In this document: positions 45-3,242 of the stretch, in pieces
Position numbering within the stretch: the first letter of the stretch is position 1
How the letters are laid out: each line of letters begins with the position of its first letter
Assembly: GCA_964447495.1 (NCBI GenBank)
Contig: CAYUTF010000081.1
Location: forward strand, 1 to 14,988
From: an uncultured archaeon
GTDB taxonomy: Archaea > Asgardarchaeota > Lokiarchaeia > Sigyniarchaeales > SOKP01
DNA: 14,988 bases
Reading direction: 5' to 3'
Notes under the pieces: model-generated
The model's input: only the letters and a program-made list of their open reading frames with translations
Database searches by the model: none
What the model was told of the DNA's origin: nothing
Program-made: the position numbers and the translations under genes

Positions 45-2243
45 ATGCGTAGAAGTAATTTAGTGTTAACAAGATATTTGATTATTTTATTTTTTATAAT
101 AACTCCTCTCTTCGGTTTAATTTCAATTTCAAAGGAATATAATAACAATCATATGATTGAACTAAATAGCTTGGAATTATCAGATAAAATTGCTAATATT
201 GAGTTAACAGATTTGCCTCAAATTGATTATGCTACTCTAAATGATACTTGGTATAATCCCAAAATTGAAATGTTGATAATTTCACCGAATCAAAGTGAAT
301 TCGTTGATGAATTAAAACCCCTTGCCGAATGGAAAAATTATAAGGGGGTAAAAACGGTTATACTCTCTAATTATACGTTATATCCTGGAATAGATGATGC
401 TGAGAAAATTAGAAACATGATTAAGTCATATTATGCTAGTGATAATATCCGATGGGTTCTATTAGCAGGTGATGCTGAAGATGATGTAATCCCAATTCGT
501 TATGTTCTTAATCCTGATGTATTATTGGTTTCACCTCCTGAATCAGAATATTCCAATTTGGATGATTATTATAAACCTACAGATTTTTATTATGCTGAAT
601 TAGATGGTAATTGGAATGAAGATGGAGATGGAAATTGGGGTGAAAATCCTAAAAACAATGCAAATGGGAAAGATGAAATTTCTTGGATTCCAGATGTATA
701 TGTTGGTCGATTGCCAGCGGATAATGCTGTAGAACTTTCAAATATGGTTAATAAATCACTAAAATATGAAATGAATCCAGAAGTTGGAGATTGGATGAAT
801 AAAATGTTATTAGCAGGAGGTATCTCATTATATTATCCCGCAGAAGATGAAGCACGACTTACTGAATATATTTGGCAACATTATACATATCTAAATATGA
901 ATTTTACTAATCTGATAAAAACTACTTCTAGTTTTACTCCAGCTATACCTCCTCCGCCAAACCAACAGGCAGCTCTTAATAATGTAAATTTTGAGGGAGC
1001 TTTTAATGGAGATGCATTTGGTGAAGGAAATTCAGTAGTATTCTTTGCCGGACATGGTGATCCAGGAGTATTTAGTGATGAAAGTGGATCTAATTATTAT
1101 TCTAACACTGATGCTAGCAGTAGCAGTAACTTAAACAAACCATCTTTGGTATACGCAGATGCTTGTACAACAGCTCCTTATGATCTTGATTATAGTGTAG
1201 GAGATAATAATATTGGAGAGAATCTTATTAATCGACCACATGCAGGAGCTATTGGATATATTGGAGGAATACGCGTTAACTGGTATTTACCGGATGATAT
1301 AAATTTAGAAAAATTAAATCGGGGAAATGCGAAACTATTTTTCAAAGAATTCTTCGGGGAAAAAAAGTTCCAACAAGGAAGAGCACTGTTCGATTCTAAA
1401 GTAAGCTACATGAACAGCGACTATTTTCTGAGGGGAGATACCTCAATGGTATTAGAATGGCAAAGAAAAAATATTCTAGCCTATAATCTATTAGGCGATC
1501 CTGAAATTGACATATATACCGATATTCCCACTTCTGTTCCTAATTTCTTTCAAGGAGATATATATGAAGGTCAACTGCTTTCTTTCAATGTTAAAGATAA
1601 TTTAGACAGAACTGTTCCCTATGCACGAGTACATCTAAGAAGTTCAGATGGGAAATATCGGACGGTTTATGCTGATATTAATGGAGACGTTAAATTTAGA
1701 CTGCCCCTCCAAAATAATGAGTTCTATAATGTGACCATCACGGGGCACAATTTAATACCCACTACTTATAATTTTACTACTAAGGAAGATGTAGATTTAC
1801 CTAAGTTGATTACATTTGAAAGTATACCTCATGATTTATCTGTTGATGACCACCTTTACTTTAGCTTAGTTAGTCAAGATAATCATTCAGGAATAGAAAG
1901 TGTATTTATTATATTAACGAAAAATAACTTTGAAGAATACTACGTATATAGAGTTGGGAATAACTTCGATGAGAATCTTCAGGAATTTAATATTACATTT
2001 AATAAGATGGACCCGGGAGATTATTCTTATGCCTTTATTGTTAGAGATTATACGAATAAAACTAAAATTTATTATGAAGAATCGTTTAAATTTCTAATAG
2101 AGACCCCAATTATATATTATATAACGATAATCTCAGTTTTCATGATCGTCGGTATTGTGTGTATCTCAATTTTCTATACTATTTTTAAACTAAACGAATA
2201 CAATAATATAAATCAAAGAATTCCTCCAGATCTCAAAATGTAA
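45..2243 (+). CDS. Peptidase C25 (gingipain-like) cysteine protease, membrane-anchored
   Basis: C25-type motifs LAEWKNYKG, WVLLAGD, PTDFYYAELDG, PDVYVGRLP, catalytic His (FFAGHG) and Cys (YADAC), and YNLLGDP. Hydrophobic N-terminal signal/anchor and a C-terminal TM helix (IIYYITIISVFMIVGIVCISIFYTIF). Confidence 0.9.
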   Translation: MRRSNLVLTRYLIILFFIITPLFGLISISKEYNNNHMIELNSLELSDKIANIELTDLPQIDYATLNDTWYNPKIEMLIISPNQSEFVDELKPLAEWKNYKGVKTVILSNYTLYPGIDDAEKIRNMIKSYYASDNIRWVLLAGDAEDDVIPIRYVLNPDVLLVSPPESEYSNLDDYYKPTDFYYAELDGNWNEDGDGNWGENPKNNANGKDEISWIPDVYVGRLPADNAVELSNMVNKSLKYEMNPEVGDWMNKMLLAGGISLYYPAEDEARLTEYIWQHYTYLNMNFTNLIKTTSSFTPAIPPPPNQQAALNNVNFEGAFNGDAFGEGNSVVFFAGHGDPGVFSDESGSNYYSNTDASSSSNLNKPSLVYADACTTAPYDLDYSVGDNNIGENLINRPHAGAIGYIGGIRVNWYLPDDINLEKLNRGNAKLFFKEFFGEKKFQQGRALFDSKVSYMNSDYFLRGDTSMVLEWQRKNILAYNLLGDPEIDIYTDIPTSVPNFFQGDIYEGQLLSFNVKDNLDRTVPYARVHLRSSDGKYRTVYADINGDVKFRLPLQNNEFYNVTITGHNLIPTTYNFTTKEDVDLPKLITFESIPHDLSVDDHLYFSLVSQDNHSGIESVFIILTKNNFEEYYVYRVGNNFDENLQEFNITFNKMDPGDYSYAFIVRDYTNKTKIYYEESFKFLIETPIIYYITIISVFMIVGIVCISIFYTIFKLNEYNNINQRIPPDLKM

Positions 2244-2474
2244 GTCAATTAACTTAATTTTTATTATTATAGCGTGCAAAAGGAGCCTCATTTTTAATTC
2301 CAATGTTTTTAAAAATGAAATTTTAATTGAGTCAATTCAATTTTGATAAAATTTAATTAATAAGCTACACTATCTCTAAATACTTTAGACCGAATAAGGA
2401 AACATTTCTAATGAAAATATTGATCCTTATTGAATGGTCTCATGTGATAATCTTAACCACTATATTTATCTCGA

Positions 2475-2613
2475 AAAGCGCCGGAAGTTAAACTGTTTCG
2501 CGTTGCATTCAGTACTGTAGTTGCGATCTATGGGAACTTGCAAACTGTAGCTTTGGCTACGGTCATGGTGATCCAGGATATACCCGGTCCCATCCCGAAC
2601 CCGGAATCGCTTT
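2475..2613 (+). other. Bulge-helix-bulge/loop-like splicing-endonuclease motif formed by the two ends of the 5S unit
   Basis: The outer helix 2475-2480/2608-2613 is followed by a 3-nt bulge AAU (2605-2607), a 4-bp central helix CCGG(2481-2484)/CCGG(2601-2604), and AAG (2485-2487) on the opposite strand. The inner side is relaxed. Confidence 0.8.
2487..2606 (+). rRNA. rrf: 5S rRNA, circularly permuted (3' half 2487-~2552, then 5' half ~2555-2606)
   Basis: 5' half is GGCTACGGTCATGGTGATCCAGGATATACCCGGTCCCATCCCGAACCCGGAA, with the loop C hallmark CCCATCCCGAAC. 3' half is GTTAAACTGTTTCGCGTTGCATTCAGTACTGTAGTTGCGATCTATGGGAACTTGCAAACTGTAGCT, with loop E AGTA/GAA and a GCGA-containing loop D. Helices I-V can all be drawn. 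The unit is 120 nt long and GC-rich against an AT-rich background. Confidence 0.93.
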
Positions 2614-2661
2614 CTATATATGTGGTTAAAGATGATCACATATTTCATTACAATTTTTCAA

Positions 2662-2699: not shown

Positions 2700-3242
2700 A
2701 TGTTCGATAAGTTCATCTTAATTCTAAAATCAATTGGTCGAAAATGGTTTCTGTTATTAATATTACTAATTGTGATAATCTTTCTATTCAATCCAGAAAT
2801 TGCAATTTGGATGATAATCATTACGTTAGTTATATATTTAGTTTCATTTATCCCAAACTTATTCTTTTCCAATAAATTTAATAGATATATAAAGAAATTC
2901 CATTCCTTAGAAGATAAAGCTCTCGCAAAAAAATTTAATAAACCTCTTAAATTAATACAAGAAAAATTATTTGATCTCTTCCAAAACCAAGAGAAAAAGA
3001 ACTGGGTCATTATTTATCTTAACAAGCAATACATATTTTATAATCGGGAAAGTGTAGAGAAGTTTATGGAATTATATAATAGTGGTTTTGGAGAAAAAGA
3101 AATTTTAGAAAATCTGCAAGAATATGGAATAAAAACGAGAGCGGAAGTCAAAGCAATTTCGGATATTTTAATAAAATTCAACAAACTTAAAGATAGAGAA
3201 GTTTCAGTTAAAACTTATCGTAATGAACAACGATTTAAGTGA
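2700..3242 (+). CDS. Hypothetical membrane protein (two N-terminal TM helices, basic soluble domain)
   Basis: 180-aa ORF with hydrophobic stretches WFLLLILLIVIIFLF and IAIWMIIITLVIYLVSFIPNLFF. It ends 5 nt from the convergent gene. Confidence 0.75.
   Translation: MFDKFILILKSIGRKWFLLLILLIVIIFLFNPEIAIWMIIITLVIYLVSFIPNLFFSNKFNRYIKKFHSLEDKALAKKFNKPLKLIQEKLFDLFQNQEKKNWVIIYLNKQYIFYNRESVEKFMELYNSGFGEKEILENLQEYGIKTRAEVKAISDILIKFNKLKDREVSVKTYRNEQRFK

What the first reader, a model, noticed from the sequence alone, without database searches (positions are those of the whole stretch)
2487..2606. Circularly permuted 5S rRNA gene
Seen: the two halves of a 5S rRNA lie in swapped order. The 3' half (GTTAAAC...CTGTAGCT, 2487-2552) comes first, then the 5' half (GGCTACGG...CCCATCCCGAACCCGGAA, 2555-2606). 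Joining 2606 to 2487 gives GGCUACGGUCAUGGUGAUCCAGGAUAUACCCGGUCCCAUCCCGAACCCGGAA|GUUAAACUGUUUCGCGUUGCAUUCAGUACUGUAGUUGCGAUCUAUGGGAACUUGCAAACUGUAGCU. It folds as helix I (2544-2551/2556-2563), II (2568-2576/2493-2501, two mismatches), III (2582-2587 with 2601-2604 and 2487-2488), V (2503-2507/2539-2543), loop E (AGUA/GAA) and IV (2515-2520/2528-2533). Established: BHB-dependent permuted genes are known for tRNAs (Cyanidioschyzon, Thermofilum) and Thermoproteus SRP RNA, and permuted 5S molecules are described in some algal mitochondria. I am not aware of a splice-dependent permuted 5S gene in archaea, but cannot check the literature. Inference: this is a functional gene that standard rRNA finders would miss or call partial.
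Basis: partly seen in the sequence, partly recalled or inferred. Interest (0 to 1): 0.97.

Follow-up and report, generated by a model that had tools for sequence, protein, structure and literature searches.

The report
Circularly permuted 5S rRNA gene
This Asgard archaeon encodes its only 5S ribosomal RNA with the two halves in swapped order, flanked by a splice signal that cuts and re-joins the RNA into a ring, which probably explains why 5S genes have seemed to be missing from most Asgard genomes.

Summary
At 2487-2606 the 3' part of a 5S rRNA comes first, then a 4-nt cap (2552-2555), then the 5' part. The flanks form a 23-bp processing stem and a canonical bulge-helix-bulge (BHB) motif. Its standard cut sites fall exactly at 2486|2487 and 2606|2607, so ligation restores the normal 5S order as a 120-nt circle. 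RNA contigs from three metatranscriptome studies carry this joined form and none carries it with the flanks; an independent DNA contig runs straight through the genomic order. The genome has no collinear 5S, and it encodes two splicing-endonuclease genes and RtcB.

In the family (135 genomes), the only two canonical 5S hits lie on bacterial contaminant contigs. 72 of 82 extracted loci have the strict BHB, at two different break points. 23 of those 72 also carry 29-31-nt BHB introns. Compensatory changes support all helices.

A covariance model of the permuted order finds strong full-length matches in 97 of 151 genomes across 18 of 23 families of the phylum. These are the families without a canonical 5S.

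Six literature searches found no report of this. Whether the mature RNA stays circular is inferred, not shown.

The parts
2414..2421 (+). A/T-rich box (AAAATATT), putative archaeal TATA element about 25 nt before the processing stem. This is inferred only.
   Evidence: It aligns with the AATATA box at the same distance in genus relatives. Other families show TTTATAT 30-40 nt upstream of their outer stem. The rule for promoter position is recalled, not tested.
2442..2465 (+). Leader: 5' strand of the long processing stem. It pairs with 2616-2641.
   Evidence: The unconstrained minimum-free-energy fold of 2436-2660 has 23 bp here. The AACCAC/GTGGTT core is conserved with compensatory changes in 25 type-a loci: 4 of 7 pairs change on both sides.
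2475..2480 (+). Outer helix of the BHB, 5' strand (AAAGCG). It pairs with 2608-2613.
   Evidence: Present in the minimum-free-energy fold. In alignment A1, 3 of 3 aligned pairs have changes on both sides. Across 72 loci there are 12 different outer-helix triplet pairs.
2481..2484 (+). Central 4-bp helix H of the BHB, 5' strand (CCGG). It pairs with 2601-2604 and mimics the 5' strand of helix III.
   Evidence: In A1, 100% of cells are paired, and the second pair is C-G in 17 rows and U-A in 8.
2485..2487 (+). 5' bulge AA|G. The predicted endonuclease cut lies between 2486 and 2487.
   Evidence: The geometry is H, then 3 nt, with the cut after the second bulge base (rule recalled). The same geometry is found in 72 of 82 loci.
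2487..2551 (+). 3' part of the 5S rRNA: joint to helix II, helix II 3' strand 2493-2501, helix V 2503-2507/2539-2543, loop E, helix IV 2515-2520/2528-2533, helix I 3' strand 2544-2551.
   Evidence: HMM positions 47-115 of collinear 5S genes match here. Covariation in helices II, V, IV and I.
2552..2555 (+). Cap tetraloop UUUG, closing helix I where a normal 5S has its two ends.
   Evidence: The cap is always 4 nt in the 72 loci: UUCG 28, UUAG 17, UUUG 14, UACG 6, others 7. The RNA contigs span it.
2556..2606 (+). 5' part of the 5S rRNA: helix I 5' strand 2556-2563, loop A, helix II 5' strand 2568-2576, loop B, helix III 2584-2589/2597-2604, loop C 2590-2596.
   Evidence: Rfam RF00001 positions 27-51 at 2582-2606. 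HMM positions 4-51 match here.
2605..2607 (+). 3' bulge AA|U. The predicted cut lies between 2606 and 2607.
   Evidence: Left unpaired in the minimum-free-energy fold. The RNA contigs continue from 2606 into 2487.
2608..2613 (+). Outer helix of the BHB, 3' strand (CGCTTT).
2616..2641 (+). Trailer: 3' strand of the processing stem.
2654..2658 (+). T5 run just after the stem, with a second one at 2671-2675. Putative archaeal terminator; this is inferred only.
   Evidence: Read from the sequence. T-runs follow the trailer in relatives too. The oligo-T termination rule is recalled.

Best explanation
This is the organism's functional 5S rRNA gene, written in circularly permuted order and matured by the archaeal tRNA-splicing machinery.

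The proposed pathway is as follows.
1. A transcript of about 210 nt (roughly 2445-2658) folds so that leader and trailer pair into a long stem.
2. The stem ends in a bulge-helix-bulge motif: outer helix 2475-2480/2608-2613, central helix 2481-2484/2601-2604, and two 3-nt bulges.
3. The splicing endonuclease (EndA) cuts after the second base of each bulge, at 2486|2487 and 2606|2607.
4. RtcB joins base 2606 to base 2487.
5. The product is a 120-nt covalently closed RNA with the normal 5S connectivity. Helix I is closed by a 4-nt cap.
6. The leader's CCGG occupies the 3' strand of helix III until it is cut away, so helix III can form only after processing.

What is shown: the gene order, the BHB and its conservation, the joined RNA, the lack of any other 5S gene, and the presence of the enzymes' genes.

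What is inferred: which enzymes act, and that the circle itself, rather than a form re-opened at the cap, is what enters the ribosome. I rate that last point about 0.6-0.7.
For: 1. Anatomy. The unconstrained fold of 2436-2660 already contains the stem, the outer helix, helix H and helix I. Forcing both bulges open costs 0.9 kcal/mol.

2. The canonical cut rule gives exactly the junction that restores 5S order. The restored sequence matches an HMM of 9 collinear 5S genes over positions 4-115 (E 1.8e-15). All 72 reconstituted relatives match over 110-115 HMM positions. Native order gives swapped partial hits.

3. RNA. In each of the RNA runs X10, X11 and X12 (3 studies), one 150-nt contig lies on 2481-2606 with 0 differences. 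Its loose ends read on from loop C before 2481 and into 2487-2498 after 2606. So each contig runs 1.25 times round a 120-nt circle, and 150 = 120 + 30. A 151-nt contig of a relative at depth 17.8 does the same. No RNA contig joins the circle to leader or trailer. The DNA run X5, not flagged as a possible source, has a 191-nt contig on 2448-2638, collinear and with 0 differences.

4. No other 5S.
- Own genome: 0 hits over the Rfam cut-off, and the locus is single copy.
- Family f1: 2 of 135 genomes have a hit over the cut-off, and both lie next to bacterial LSU rRNA.
- Sister family f2: 9 of 11 have a collinear 5S.

5. Conservation.
- 21 of 24 other genomes of the genus hold the locus.
- The strict BHB is found in 72 of 82 extracted loci.
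- All 72 reconstituted circles were 119-122 nt except one unresolved case (L066, 127 nt), once BHB introns were removed in silico.

6. Covariation.
- RNAalifold predicts stem, outer helix, H and helices II, V, IV and I de novo; 25 of 46 pairs have compensatory change.
- Named structure on A1 (25 sequences): 96.7% of cells paired, against 87.0% in shuffles (0 of 500 as high). 23 pairs change on both sides, against 10.6 in shuffles (0 of 500). Slid controls pair 32-42%.
- Named structure on A2 (24 type-b sequences): 95.7% against 90.6%, 24 pairs against 7.1, both 0 of 500.

7. In type-b loci the break lies in loop C. There the same cut rule rebuilds a loop C like that of collinear-loop relatives.

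8. Enzymes. G000 has two genes with the endonuclease domain (104 and 69 bits) and one RtcB (561 bits).

9. Breadth. The permuted-order model R1 gives full-length hits of 47 bits or more in 97 of 151 genomes and 18 of 23 families. It gives only 26-32 bits in the families with a canonical 5S, and no hit in the one f30 genome.
Against: - Rfam's own model gives only a 25-nt partial hit (23.7 bits, below the 38-bit cut-off) on the native gene. I could not score the joined order with a covariance model.
- The RNA evidence is assembled contigs, not reads. Depths are low (2, 6 and 2; 17.8 for the relative). The joints table of read laying lists none, so the junction is read from the 12-nt loose ends (tables 7 and 8). 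The tool warns that contigs cannot show ends, strand or level, and that RNA libraries can contain DNA.
- That 150 = 120 + k-1 with k = 31 rests on my recollection of how these contigs are built.
- On G000 itself the 5' bulge can also be drawn as 2 nt, with G2487 paired to C2600, so the inner helix is weak.
- 10 of the 82 loci fail the strict BHB rule: 5 are cut by a locus or contig end, 3 have a 1-bp outer helix, 1 has 3 of 4 pairs in H, and 1 is an odd fragment.
- For type-b loci RNAalifold prefers mature helix III to helix H.
- Nothing shows directly that EndA and RtcB act here, or that the circle sits in ribosomes.
Confidence: 0.93

Rival explanations
1. The gene and the BHB/ligation pathway are as described, but the circle is only an intermediate. 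A nuclease opens the 4-nt cap, and the ribosome receives an ordinary linear 5S with ends at helix I. [quoted passage not shown]
For: It follows the precedent of known permuted tRNA genes (recalled). It also follows the accepted re-linearisation of circular pre-rRNAs (passage in PMC12918454). Contigs cannot show RNA ends (warning), so a linear form is not excluded.
Against: - The cap is always exactly 4 nt in the 72 loci, and 38 of them fit UNCG (UUCG 28, UACG 6, CUCG 3, UCCG 1). UUCG, UACG, UGCG and CUCG caps recur in other families. That fits a retained stable loop better than a disposable spacer.
- The RNA contigs are unbroken across the cap at mean depths as low as 2. So cap-spanning words are not much rarer than the rest; this is weak evidence.
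- PMC12918454 reports that circular 23S rRNA does sit in archaeal ribosomes (abstract and passages).
Confidence: 0.3
2. Assembly artefact: the genome really holds a tandem array of normal 5S genes with a 120-nt period. Assemblers collapsed it to a single turn, so that a 3' half followed by a 5' half appears between the flanks.
For: A collapsed tandem array would also give a closed cycle in a word graph, and an RNA contig that runs round.
Against: - The DNA contig of X5 passes unbranched from leader to trailer (2448-2638), which it could not do if the closing junction existed in that DNA.
- The same single-turn order occurs in 77 independently assembled records. Several carry k141 contig names, where the word length exceeds the period, and two are titled chromosome.
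- Both array ends would have to fall at the same phase, inside a BHB that covaries.
- A 4-nt spacer leaves no room for promoters.
- Loci with introns, and loci with a shifted break point, still reconstitute to 119-122 nt.
Confidence: 0.01
3. A decayed 5S pseudogene or a chance resemblance, with the true 5S lying in an unassembled part of the genome.
For: The assembly has 223 contigs and rRNA genes are often unassembled. Rfam gives only a weak partial hit.
Against: - The locus is conserved with compensatory changes across 49 distinct sequences.
- It is present in closed single-contig genomes of other families that also lack a canonical hit, for example G303, G055, G056, G157 and G042.
- It is seen in RNA libraries of 3 studies in the processed form only.
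- 0 of 135 family genomes have an archaeal collinear 5S.
Confidence: 0.01

Closest known systems
Permuted tRNA genes processed through a BHB and a circular intermediate (Cyanidioschyzon merolae, Soma et al. 2007, seen only as a reference entry; Thermofilum, recalled)
   Same: The 3' half is encoded before the 5' half. Leader and trailer form a BHB. Endonuclease plus ligase restore the functional junction through a circle.
   Different: Here the RNA is a ribosomal RNA. The piece between the natural ends is a fixed 4-nt tetraloop rather than a spacer removed by RNase P and tRNase Z, so the product may stay circular. The trait is fixed across most of a phylum sample rather than in a few genes of a genome.
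Permuted SRP RNA gene of Thermoproteus
   Same: A single essential non-coding RNA gene in permuted order, depending on BHB processing.
   Different: A different RNA and a narrow taxonomic range. Membership was not tested here.
Circular pre-16S/pre-23S rRNA and circular 23S rRNA in archaeal ribosomes (PMC12918454, abstract and passages; preprint 10.1101/2025.04.27.650855, abstract start only)
   Same: A long processing stem with a BHB flanks the rRNA. The RNA is excised and circularised. Asgard archaea are reported to have circular 16S and 23S transcripts.
   Different: Those genes are collinear, and the BHB lies at the natural ends (helix 1). Here the BHB lies between helices III and II, so ligation is needed to create the 5S connectivity. 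That paper states that circularisation concerns 16S and 23S 'but not 5S rRNAs'.
Circularly permuted 23S rRNA of Pyrococcus furiosus / Thermococcus (PMC7758197, abstract and passages; preprint 10.64898/2026.03.23.713588, abstract start only)
   Same: An archaeal rRNA whose gene order and mature RNA order differ by a circular permutation made through a circle.
   Different: The direction is reversed. There a collinear gene gives a permuted RNA after helix 98 is excised. Here a permuted gene gives an RNA of normal connectivity.
Permuted 5S rRNAs of some organelles (PMC4267664, search listing and abstract start only)
   Same: A 5S rRNA whose halves are in swapped order and which standard models miss.
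   Different: Those are organellar, and as far as I recall have no BHB or ligation and remain permuted linear RNAs. I did not read the paper's text.
Circular RNAs from collinear 5S genes in Sulfolobus and Halobacterium (PMC12558985, passages)
   Same: Circular molecules containing 5S sequence exist in archaea.
   Different: Those have variable junctions and are suggested to be degradation products. Here there is one precise junction dictated by a conserved BHB, and it is the only route to a 5S.

Membership tests
5S rRNA (Rfam RF00001) | Full-length match to the family covariance model at or above 38 bits | tested here: not met
   The native gene gives nothing at gathering score. In E-value mode there is only positions 27-51 at 23.7 bits. 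The joined order could not be given to Infernal. The failure follows from the gene order, not from the RNA.
5S rRNA (Rfam RF00001) | After restoring the order, end-to-end sequence similarity to collinear 5S rRNAs of relatives | tested here: met
   An nhmmer profile of 9 collinear 5S genes of family f2 matches HMM positions 4-115 at E 1.8e-15 for G000. 72 of 72 reconstituted relatives match over 110-115 positions. Identity to single f2 genes is 53-62%.
5S rRNA (Rfam RF00001) | Three-way junction with helices I, II/III and IV/V, supported by covariation | tested here: met
   Helices I, II, V and IV are predicted de novo, and 93.5-99.5% of cells are paired, with 3-5 pairs per helix changing on both sides. 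The four main helix III pairs are paired in 17 of 17 sequences from 5 families.
5S rRNA (Rfam RF00001) | It is the genome's 5S: no other candidate exists | tested here: met
   for G000. 0 of 135 family genomes have an archaeal collinear 5S. MAG incompleteness limits this for any single genome.
BHB-dependent permuted RNA genes | The 3' part is encoded upstream of the 5' part on one strand, in one locus | tested here: met
   An independent DNA contig confirms the order.
BHB-dependent permuted RNA genes | Leader and trailer form helix / 3-nt bulge / 4-bp helix / 3-nt bulge / helix | tested here: met
   G000. 72 of 82 family loci meet the strict rule. 10 of 14 loci from other families meet it, with outer helices of 3 bp (f15) to 15 bp, 8 bp or more in the other nine. 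The inner helix of G000 is weak, so the motif is somewhat relaxed on that side.
BHB-dependent permuted RNA genes | Cuts at the canonical bulge positions restore the functional junction | tested here: met
   The cut rule (after the second bulge base) is recalled. Applied blind, it gives 119-122-nt products that match collinear 5S genes.
BHB-dependent permuted RNA genes | The joined RNA exists in cells | tested here: met
   RNA contigs of X10, X11 and X12 wrap round the junction. These are contigs only, at low depth.
BHB-dependent permuted RNA genes | Splicing endonuclease and RNA ligase are encoded | tested here: met
   PF01974 twice and PF01139 once in G000.
BHB-dependent permuted RNA genes | Cleavage by EndA and ligation by RtcB demonstrated | not testable with these tools
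   This needs an in vitro assay or genetics.
Archaeal rRNA processing stems with circular pre-rRNA | A long inverted repeat flanks the rRNA and carries the BHB | tested here: met
   23 bp at 2442-2465/2616-2641, plus the BHB. The stem core covaries.
Archaeal rRNA processing stems with circular pre-rRNA | The BHB lies at the natural ends of a collinear rRNA | tested here: not met
   The BHB lies between helix III and helix II. The natural ends are joined by the cap.

The most novel reading that the evidence does not exclude
In most Asgard archaea the mature 5S rRNA inside the ribosome is a covalently closed circle. It is made from a permuted gene by the tRNA-splicing endonuclease and RtcB, with helix I sealed by a UNCG-type tetraloop. 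This permuted state is ancient in the phylum: the same break site occurs in at least 15 families. Collinear genes in a few families, and the collinear eukaryotic 5S, would then be either retained or regenerated states. In one family the break point has moved and BHB introns have been added, so the 5S gene there behaves as a playground for BHB elements.
Probability: 0.5. Interest if true: 0.97.

Novelty: new variant of a known kind. Interest (0 to 1): 0.93.

Why it matters
5S rRNA is universal, and its gene is normally trivial to find. In Asgard archaea, the closest known relatives of eukaryotes, it has often not been found. [quoted passage not shown]

A permuted gene explains that gap. It has several consequences:
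- It yields a simple model (R1-like) for annotating 5S genes in these genomes.
- It bears on genome-quality calls that require a 5S gene.
- It makes the tRNA-splicing endonuclease and RtcB essential for building the large ribosomal subunit in these organisms.
- It would be the first case I could find of an rRNA gene that is permuted at the DNA level in archaea.
- If the circle is the mature form, it would be the first ribosome with a circular 5S.
- It gives a clean natural system for studying how BHB elements move, since the family shows two break points and three intron sites.
- It bears on what the rRNA processing of the archaeal ancestor of eukaryotes looked like.

Tried and rejected
- **Rfam on the native window.** It gave no gathering-level hit and, in E-value mode, one partial 5S hit. 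The other four weak hits (snoRNA, miRNA and RsaA families, E 4-6) are chance matches in A/T-rich flanks.
- **ARAGORN.** It found no tRNA in the window.
- **The second weak 5S hit of the genome.** C28:29788-29884 (17.7 bits, E 0.9) is an A/T-rich stretch that shares a short loop-C-like word. I rejected it as chance but did not examine it further.
- **The two canonical 5S hits in the family.** G014:C263 and G205:C68 were rejected as belonging to the archaea, because each lies beside a bacterial-type LSU rRNA.
- **The 60-aa ORF on the minus strand at 2466-2648.** It overlaps the RNA gene and was not pursued as a gene.
- **A covariance model with my own full 5S structure on A3.** I dropped this because MAFFT misaligns helices I, II and V between distant families. 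R1 therefore carries only 16 base pairs and works largely through sequence.
- **The strict BHB scan outside family f1.** It did not catch the loci of families f13 and f3, nor f9, f24, f12 and f32. By eye, f13 has helix H and both bulges, but the outer stem is displaced by a leader hairpin. In f3 (L013) the break is in loop B, and its outer helix has one bulged base. These readings are by eye, not scored.
- **Locus L066.** Its intron could not be resolved by my rule; the product was 127 nt.
- **Parts of the stretch without RNA contig cover.** Leader and trailer carry no RNA contig joined to the circle. A contig of X11 on 2613-2759 has 11 differences, and I take it to come from another organism. 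Missing cover in contigs is not evidence of absence.
- **Supplementary files of papers.** They were not opened. Supplements of PMC12918454 and PMC8813620 could hold 5S observations that I did not see.
- **Literature.** Six searches found no report of a permuted 5S gene in archaea. The library lacks most subscription journals.
- **Taxon names of anonymous families.** I did not try to put names on the anonymous families or genomes.
Full report
**1. The observation.**
From 2487 to 2551 lies sequence that belongs to the 3' two thirds of a 5S rRNA: the joint after helix III, the 3' strand of helix II, helices V and IV with loop E, and the 3' strand of helix I. Bases 2552-2555 (UUUG) cap helix I. 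From 2556 to 2606 lies the 5' third: the 5' strand of helix I, loop A, the 5' strand of helix II, loop B, helix III and loop C.

Rfam finds nothing at gathering score in the whole window. In E-value mode on 2380-2720 it finds one 5S piece, at 2582-2606, model positions 27-51, 23.7 bits.

A profile HMM that I built from 9 collinear 5S genes of the sister family gives the predicted picture. On the native order there are two partial hits in swapped order: HMM 47-115 upstream and HMM 4-51 downstream. On the order restored inside a script there is one hit over HMM 4-115 with E 1.8e-15. I could not run Rfam's covariance model on the restored order, because no tool takes a joined sequence.

**2. The flanks carry the processing signal.**
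It is there.
- The unconstrained minimum-free-energy fold of 2436-2660 pairs 2442-2465 with 2616-2641 (23 bp).
- It then pairs 2475-2480 with 2608-2613, and then 2481-2484 (CCGG) with 2601-2604 (CCGG).
- It leaves 2605-2607 unpaired, and it forms helix I.
- Forcing 2485-2487 open as well costs 0.9 kcal/mol.

This is the helix / 3-nt bulge / 4-bp helix / 3-nt bulge arrangement of the archaeal bulge-helix-bulge (BHB) motif, with each bulge 3' of its strand of the central helix. The rule that the splicing endonuclease cuts after the second bulge base is recalled knowledge. It puts the cuts at 2486|2487 and 2606|2607.

The leader's CCGG is a copy of the 5' strand of helix III. It occupies the 3' strand of helix III in the precursor, so helix III proper can form only after the cut. 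That last point is inference.

On G000 the 5' bulge can also be drawn as 2 nt, with G2487 paired to C2600. The inner helix is therefore weak, and the motif is slightly relaxed on that side.

**3. RNA and DNA from public runs.**
The stretch is held by 20 listed runs from salt-marsh, sediment and wetland samples. I laid three RNA runs from three studies and one DNA run that is not flagged as a possible source.
- In each of X10, X11 and X12 one contig of 150 nt lies on 2481-2606 without a difference.
- Twelve loose letters before 2481 continue loop C (the letters of 2589-2600).
- Twelve loose letters after 2606 are those of 2487-2498.
- Because 2481-2486 repeats 2601-2606, each contig is the circle read 1.25 times, and it contains both the ligated junction and the cap.
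- The length is 120 + 30. A closed cycle gives that length in a word graph with 31-letter words; the word length is recalled.
- X12 also holds a 151-nt contig of a relative (9 differences, depth 17.8) whose ends wrap in the same way.
- No RNA contig links the circle to leader or trailer.
- The DNA contig of X5 covers 2448-2638 in genomic order with no difference and no branch.

Limits of this evidence: these are contigs at depths of 2-6, the tool's own joints table is empty, and contigs cannot show ends or abundance.

**4. No other 5S in the genome or the family.**
- The genome (3.81 Mb, 223 contigs, 98.4% complete) has no hit over the Rfam cut-off.
- The only other weak hit, on C28, is an A/T-rich stretch.
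- The locus is single copy.
- It lies between two ORFs, 45-2243 and 2700-3242.
- Among 41 relatives, a canonical 5S is found in 9 of 11 genomes of sister family f2, but in only 1 of 24 other genomes of the genus.
- Over all 135 genomes of family f1, 2 have a hit over the cut-off. Both lie next to bacterial-type LSU rRNA, one of which carries a group I intron, so they are contaminant contigs.

**5. Conservation within the family.**
The locus is found by DNA similarity in 21 of 24 other genomes of the genus and in 0 of 16 outside it. A pattern spanning the 3' part, cap and 5' part gives these results:

| Search | Result |
|---|---|
| GTDB species collection | 77 stretches; 65 of the titles carry Asgard taxon names (Promethearchaeota/-ia, some Hermod-, Hod-, Thor- or Odinarchaeota), 11 read 'uncultured archaeon', one is labelled as a bacterium |
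| 400 genomes of the phylum | 77 match, all in family f1 (76 of 134 plus G000) |
| The 265 genomes outside f1 | 0 match |
| Backwards control pattern | 0 match |

From 82 extracted loci, a strict search required: a 4-bp central helix beginning C[C/U]GG, 3-nt bulges, and an adjacent outer helix of 2 bp or more. It finds the terminal BHB in 72. Of the other 10, 5 are cut by a locus or contig end, 3 have only 1 adjacent outer pair, 1 has 3 of 4 pairs in the central helix, and 1 is an odd fragment.

Two break points exist:
- Type a, 42 loci, as in the window: the break lies after the 3' strand of helix III.
- Type b, 30 loci: the break lies inside loop C, after the 5' strand of helix III.

In type b the leader's copy of the helix III strand pairs with the other strand. 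The same cut rule rebuilds a loop C like that of relatives whose loop is collinear.

Circle lengths before intron removal are 119-122 nt in 50 loci, 149-152 in 21, and 180 in 1.

The longer circles contain insertions of 29-31 nt at three sites: loop C, the 5' strand of helix IV, and the 3' side of helix IV. Each insertion is bounded by its own BHB. After in-silico removal, 71 of 72 products are 119-122 nt; one (L066) stayed unresolved. All 72 products (60 distinct sequences) match the collinear-5S HMM over 110-115 positions.

**6. Covariation.**
On 25 distinct intron-less type-a loci with 48-nt flanks (A1), RNAalifold predicts the following de novo: the stem core, the outer helix, the central helix, and helices II, V, IV and I. 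25 of its 46 pairs show compensatory change.

| Measure | A1, 25 type-a loci, 42 pairs | A2, 24 type-b loci, 49 pairs |
|---|---|---|
| Cells paired | 96.7% | 95.7% |
| Cells paired in shuffles | 87.0% (0 of 500 as high) | 90.6% (0 of 500) |
| Pairs changed on both sides | 23 | 24 |
| Same measure in shuffles | 10.6 (0 of 500) | 7.1 (0 of 500) |
| Slid controls, cells paired | 32-42% | 29-41% |

In A1 the second pair of the central helix is C-G in 17 sequences and U-A in 8, and all three outer-helix pairs change on both sides. In A2 the outer and central helices are 100% paired. On A2, RNAalifold by itself prefers mature helix III to the central BHB helix. That is expected, because the two compete for one strand. 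The tool warns that relatedness inflates the shuffle comparison; the slid controls do not suffer from that.

**7. The cap.**
Helix I has 8 contiguous pairs in 71 of 72 loci. The loop between its strands is always 4 nt: UUCG 28, UUAG 17, UUUG 14, UACG 6, CUCG 3, and 4 others. Caps of UUCG, UACG, UGCG, CUCG and UUUG recur in other families. A fixed-size, often hyperstable tetraloop is what one expects of a retained structural element, not of a spacer to be cut out. Together with RNA contigs that run unbroken through the cap at low depth, this makes a covalently closed mature 5S the more likely reading. It is an inference. I put about 0.3 on the rival, in which the circle is re-opened at the cap.

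**8. Enzymes.**
G000 encodes two proteins with the catalytic domain of the tRNA-intron endonuclease, in open frames of 208 and 206 aa, and one RtcB ligase. Two endonuclease paralogues fit a heteromeric enzyme. Such enzymes are known (recalled) to accept relaxed BHB motifs. I did not test this.

**9. Beyond the family.**
In 151 genomes drawn evenly from the phylum (completeness 85% or more), a canonical 5S over the cut-off is found in 47:

| Family | Genomes with a canonical 5S over the cut-off |
|---|---|
| f31 | 34 of 37 |
| f19 | 7 of 7 |
| f28 | 2 of 2 |
| f30 | 1 of 1 |
| f2 | 2 of 3 |
| f14 | 1 borderline hit |

Sub-threshold hits in other families turned out to be permuted loci as well. 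The halves are swapped against the collinear HMM. Sequences show 3' part, cap, 5' part and terminal BHBs with outer helices of 10-13 bp in f27, f20 and f14.

I built a covariance model of the permuted order from 17 loci of 5 families (R1: 149 positions, 16 pairs). On the same 151 genomes it gave these results:
- Full-length hits with E of 2.4e-9 or better (47-146 bits) in 97 genomes of 18 families: f1 32 of 34 plus G000, f13 18/18, f16 9/9, f21 5/6, f15 5/5, f24 4/4, f27 4/4, f9 3/3, f20 3/3, f14 3/3, f11 2/2, f18 2/2, f8, f10, f12, f26 and f32 1/1 each, and f33 1/2.
- Only 26-32 bits in 22 genomes, all of f2, f19, f28 and f31.
- Nothing in 32 genomes.

The two states are complementary. The only genome with both is the borderline f14 case, where both hits are the same locus at a contig end.

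In 14 loci from 14 further families, the strict rule finds a terminal BHB with a 3-15-bp outer helix (8 bp or more in nine) in 10 of them. All 10 are at the type-a site, with circles of 120-129 nt. Several of these genomes are single closed contigs (G303, G055, G056, G157, G042), which rules out an unassembled second gene there, as far as Rfam can see.

One genome of family f3 has the break in loop B instead (read by eye). Two f31 genomes have a collinear 5S with an insertion of about 30 nt (not analysed).

The families are anonymous, and I did not try to name them.

**10. What is known.**
Six full-text searches found no report of a permuted 5S gene in archaea. What I did find:
- PMC12918454 (abstract and passages) says circularisation concerns 16S and 23S 'but not 5S rRNAs'. 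It reports circular 23S in ribosomes and circular 16S/23S transcripts in Asgard archaea.
- PMC7758197 (passages) describes the reverse case: a collinear 23S gene that yields a permuted RNA.
- PMC12558985 (passages) reports circular RNAs from collinear 5S genes, with variable ends, suggested to reflect degradation.
- PMC4267664 (listing and abstract start) reports permuted organellar 5S rRNAs.

Permuted tRNA genes and the permuted Thermoproteus SRP RNA gene are recalled; I did not read them here. The library lacks most subscription journals, and supplements were closed.

**11. Verdict.**
The feature is real and functional. It is the organism's only 5S gene, and a canonical BHB with ligation matures it to a circle with normal 5S connectivity. 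It belongs to the known kind 'BHB-dependent permuted RNA genes'. It is a new variant of that kind in four respects: the RNA class is an rRNA, the natural ends are sealed by a tetraloop, the break point moves and introns are added within one family, and the trait spreads over most families sampled in the Asgard phylum. Confidence in the gene and the pathway is 0.93. Confidence that the circle is the mature ribosomal form is about 0.6-0.7.

Noticed in passing
L059, L060, L064, L069, L086, L090, L093, L095, L097-L099, L109, L110, L117, L119, L122, L125, L131, L133-L135 (family f1 loci): 5S genes with 29-31-nt insertions at three sites: loop C, the 5' strand of helix IV, and the 3' side of helix IV. 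Each is bounded by a canonical BHB. One locus (L060) has two. Introns in 5S rRNA genes are new to me.
   Followed up: partly
L013 (G026:C63, family f3), around locus 1440-1700, minus strand: A permuted 5S whose break lies in loop B, between helices II and III, and not at the usual site. It has a 7-nt cap and an outer helix with one bulged base. Read by eye only.
   Followed up: partly
L165 (G316) and L166 (G317), family f31: Collinear 5S genes of about 150 nt with an insertion of about 30 nt in the 3' domain. They score just under the Rfam cut-off (32 and 37.1 bits). The insertion is possibly a BHB intron.
   Followed up: no
L077 (second match, called L077_1 in my scripts): A second stretch in the same locus carries only the end of the 3' part, the cap and the 5' part of a type-b 5S, preceded by unrelated sequence. 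It may be a fragment, or a gene with a large insertion.
   Followed up: no
L136 (G205:C68) and L012 (G014:C263): Bacterial rRNA operon ends (23S plus 5S) binned into two Asgard genomes. The 23S in L136 carries a group I intron (65 bits).
   Followed up: partly
L159:51-215, minus strand (G303, family f27): A tRNA match spans 165 nt just downstream of that genome's permuted 5S, so it is probably an intron-containing tRNA gene beside the 5S locus.
   Followed up: no
G000:C196:3202-3426 and G000:C3:37804-38052: Two separate genes carry the splicing-endonuclease catalytic domain, which suggests a heteromeric enzyme.
   Followed up: no
A1 columns 33-47; window about 2466-2474 in G000; 'GTAGC...GCTAC'-type hairpins in relatives: Many relatives have a small leader hairpin between the distal stem and the BHB outer helix, making a three-way junction. 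It covaries in type-b loci, where one of its five pairs is G-C in 16 sequences and A-U in 4. G000 lacks a clear one.
   Followed up: partly
G000:C28:29788-29884, minus strand: An A/T-rich stretch contains a 12-nt word like 5S loop C and gives a weak full-model Rfam alignment (17.7 bits). I take it as chance.
   Followed up: partly
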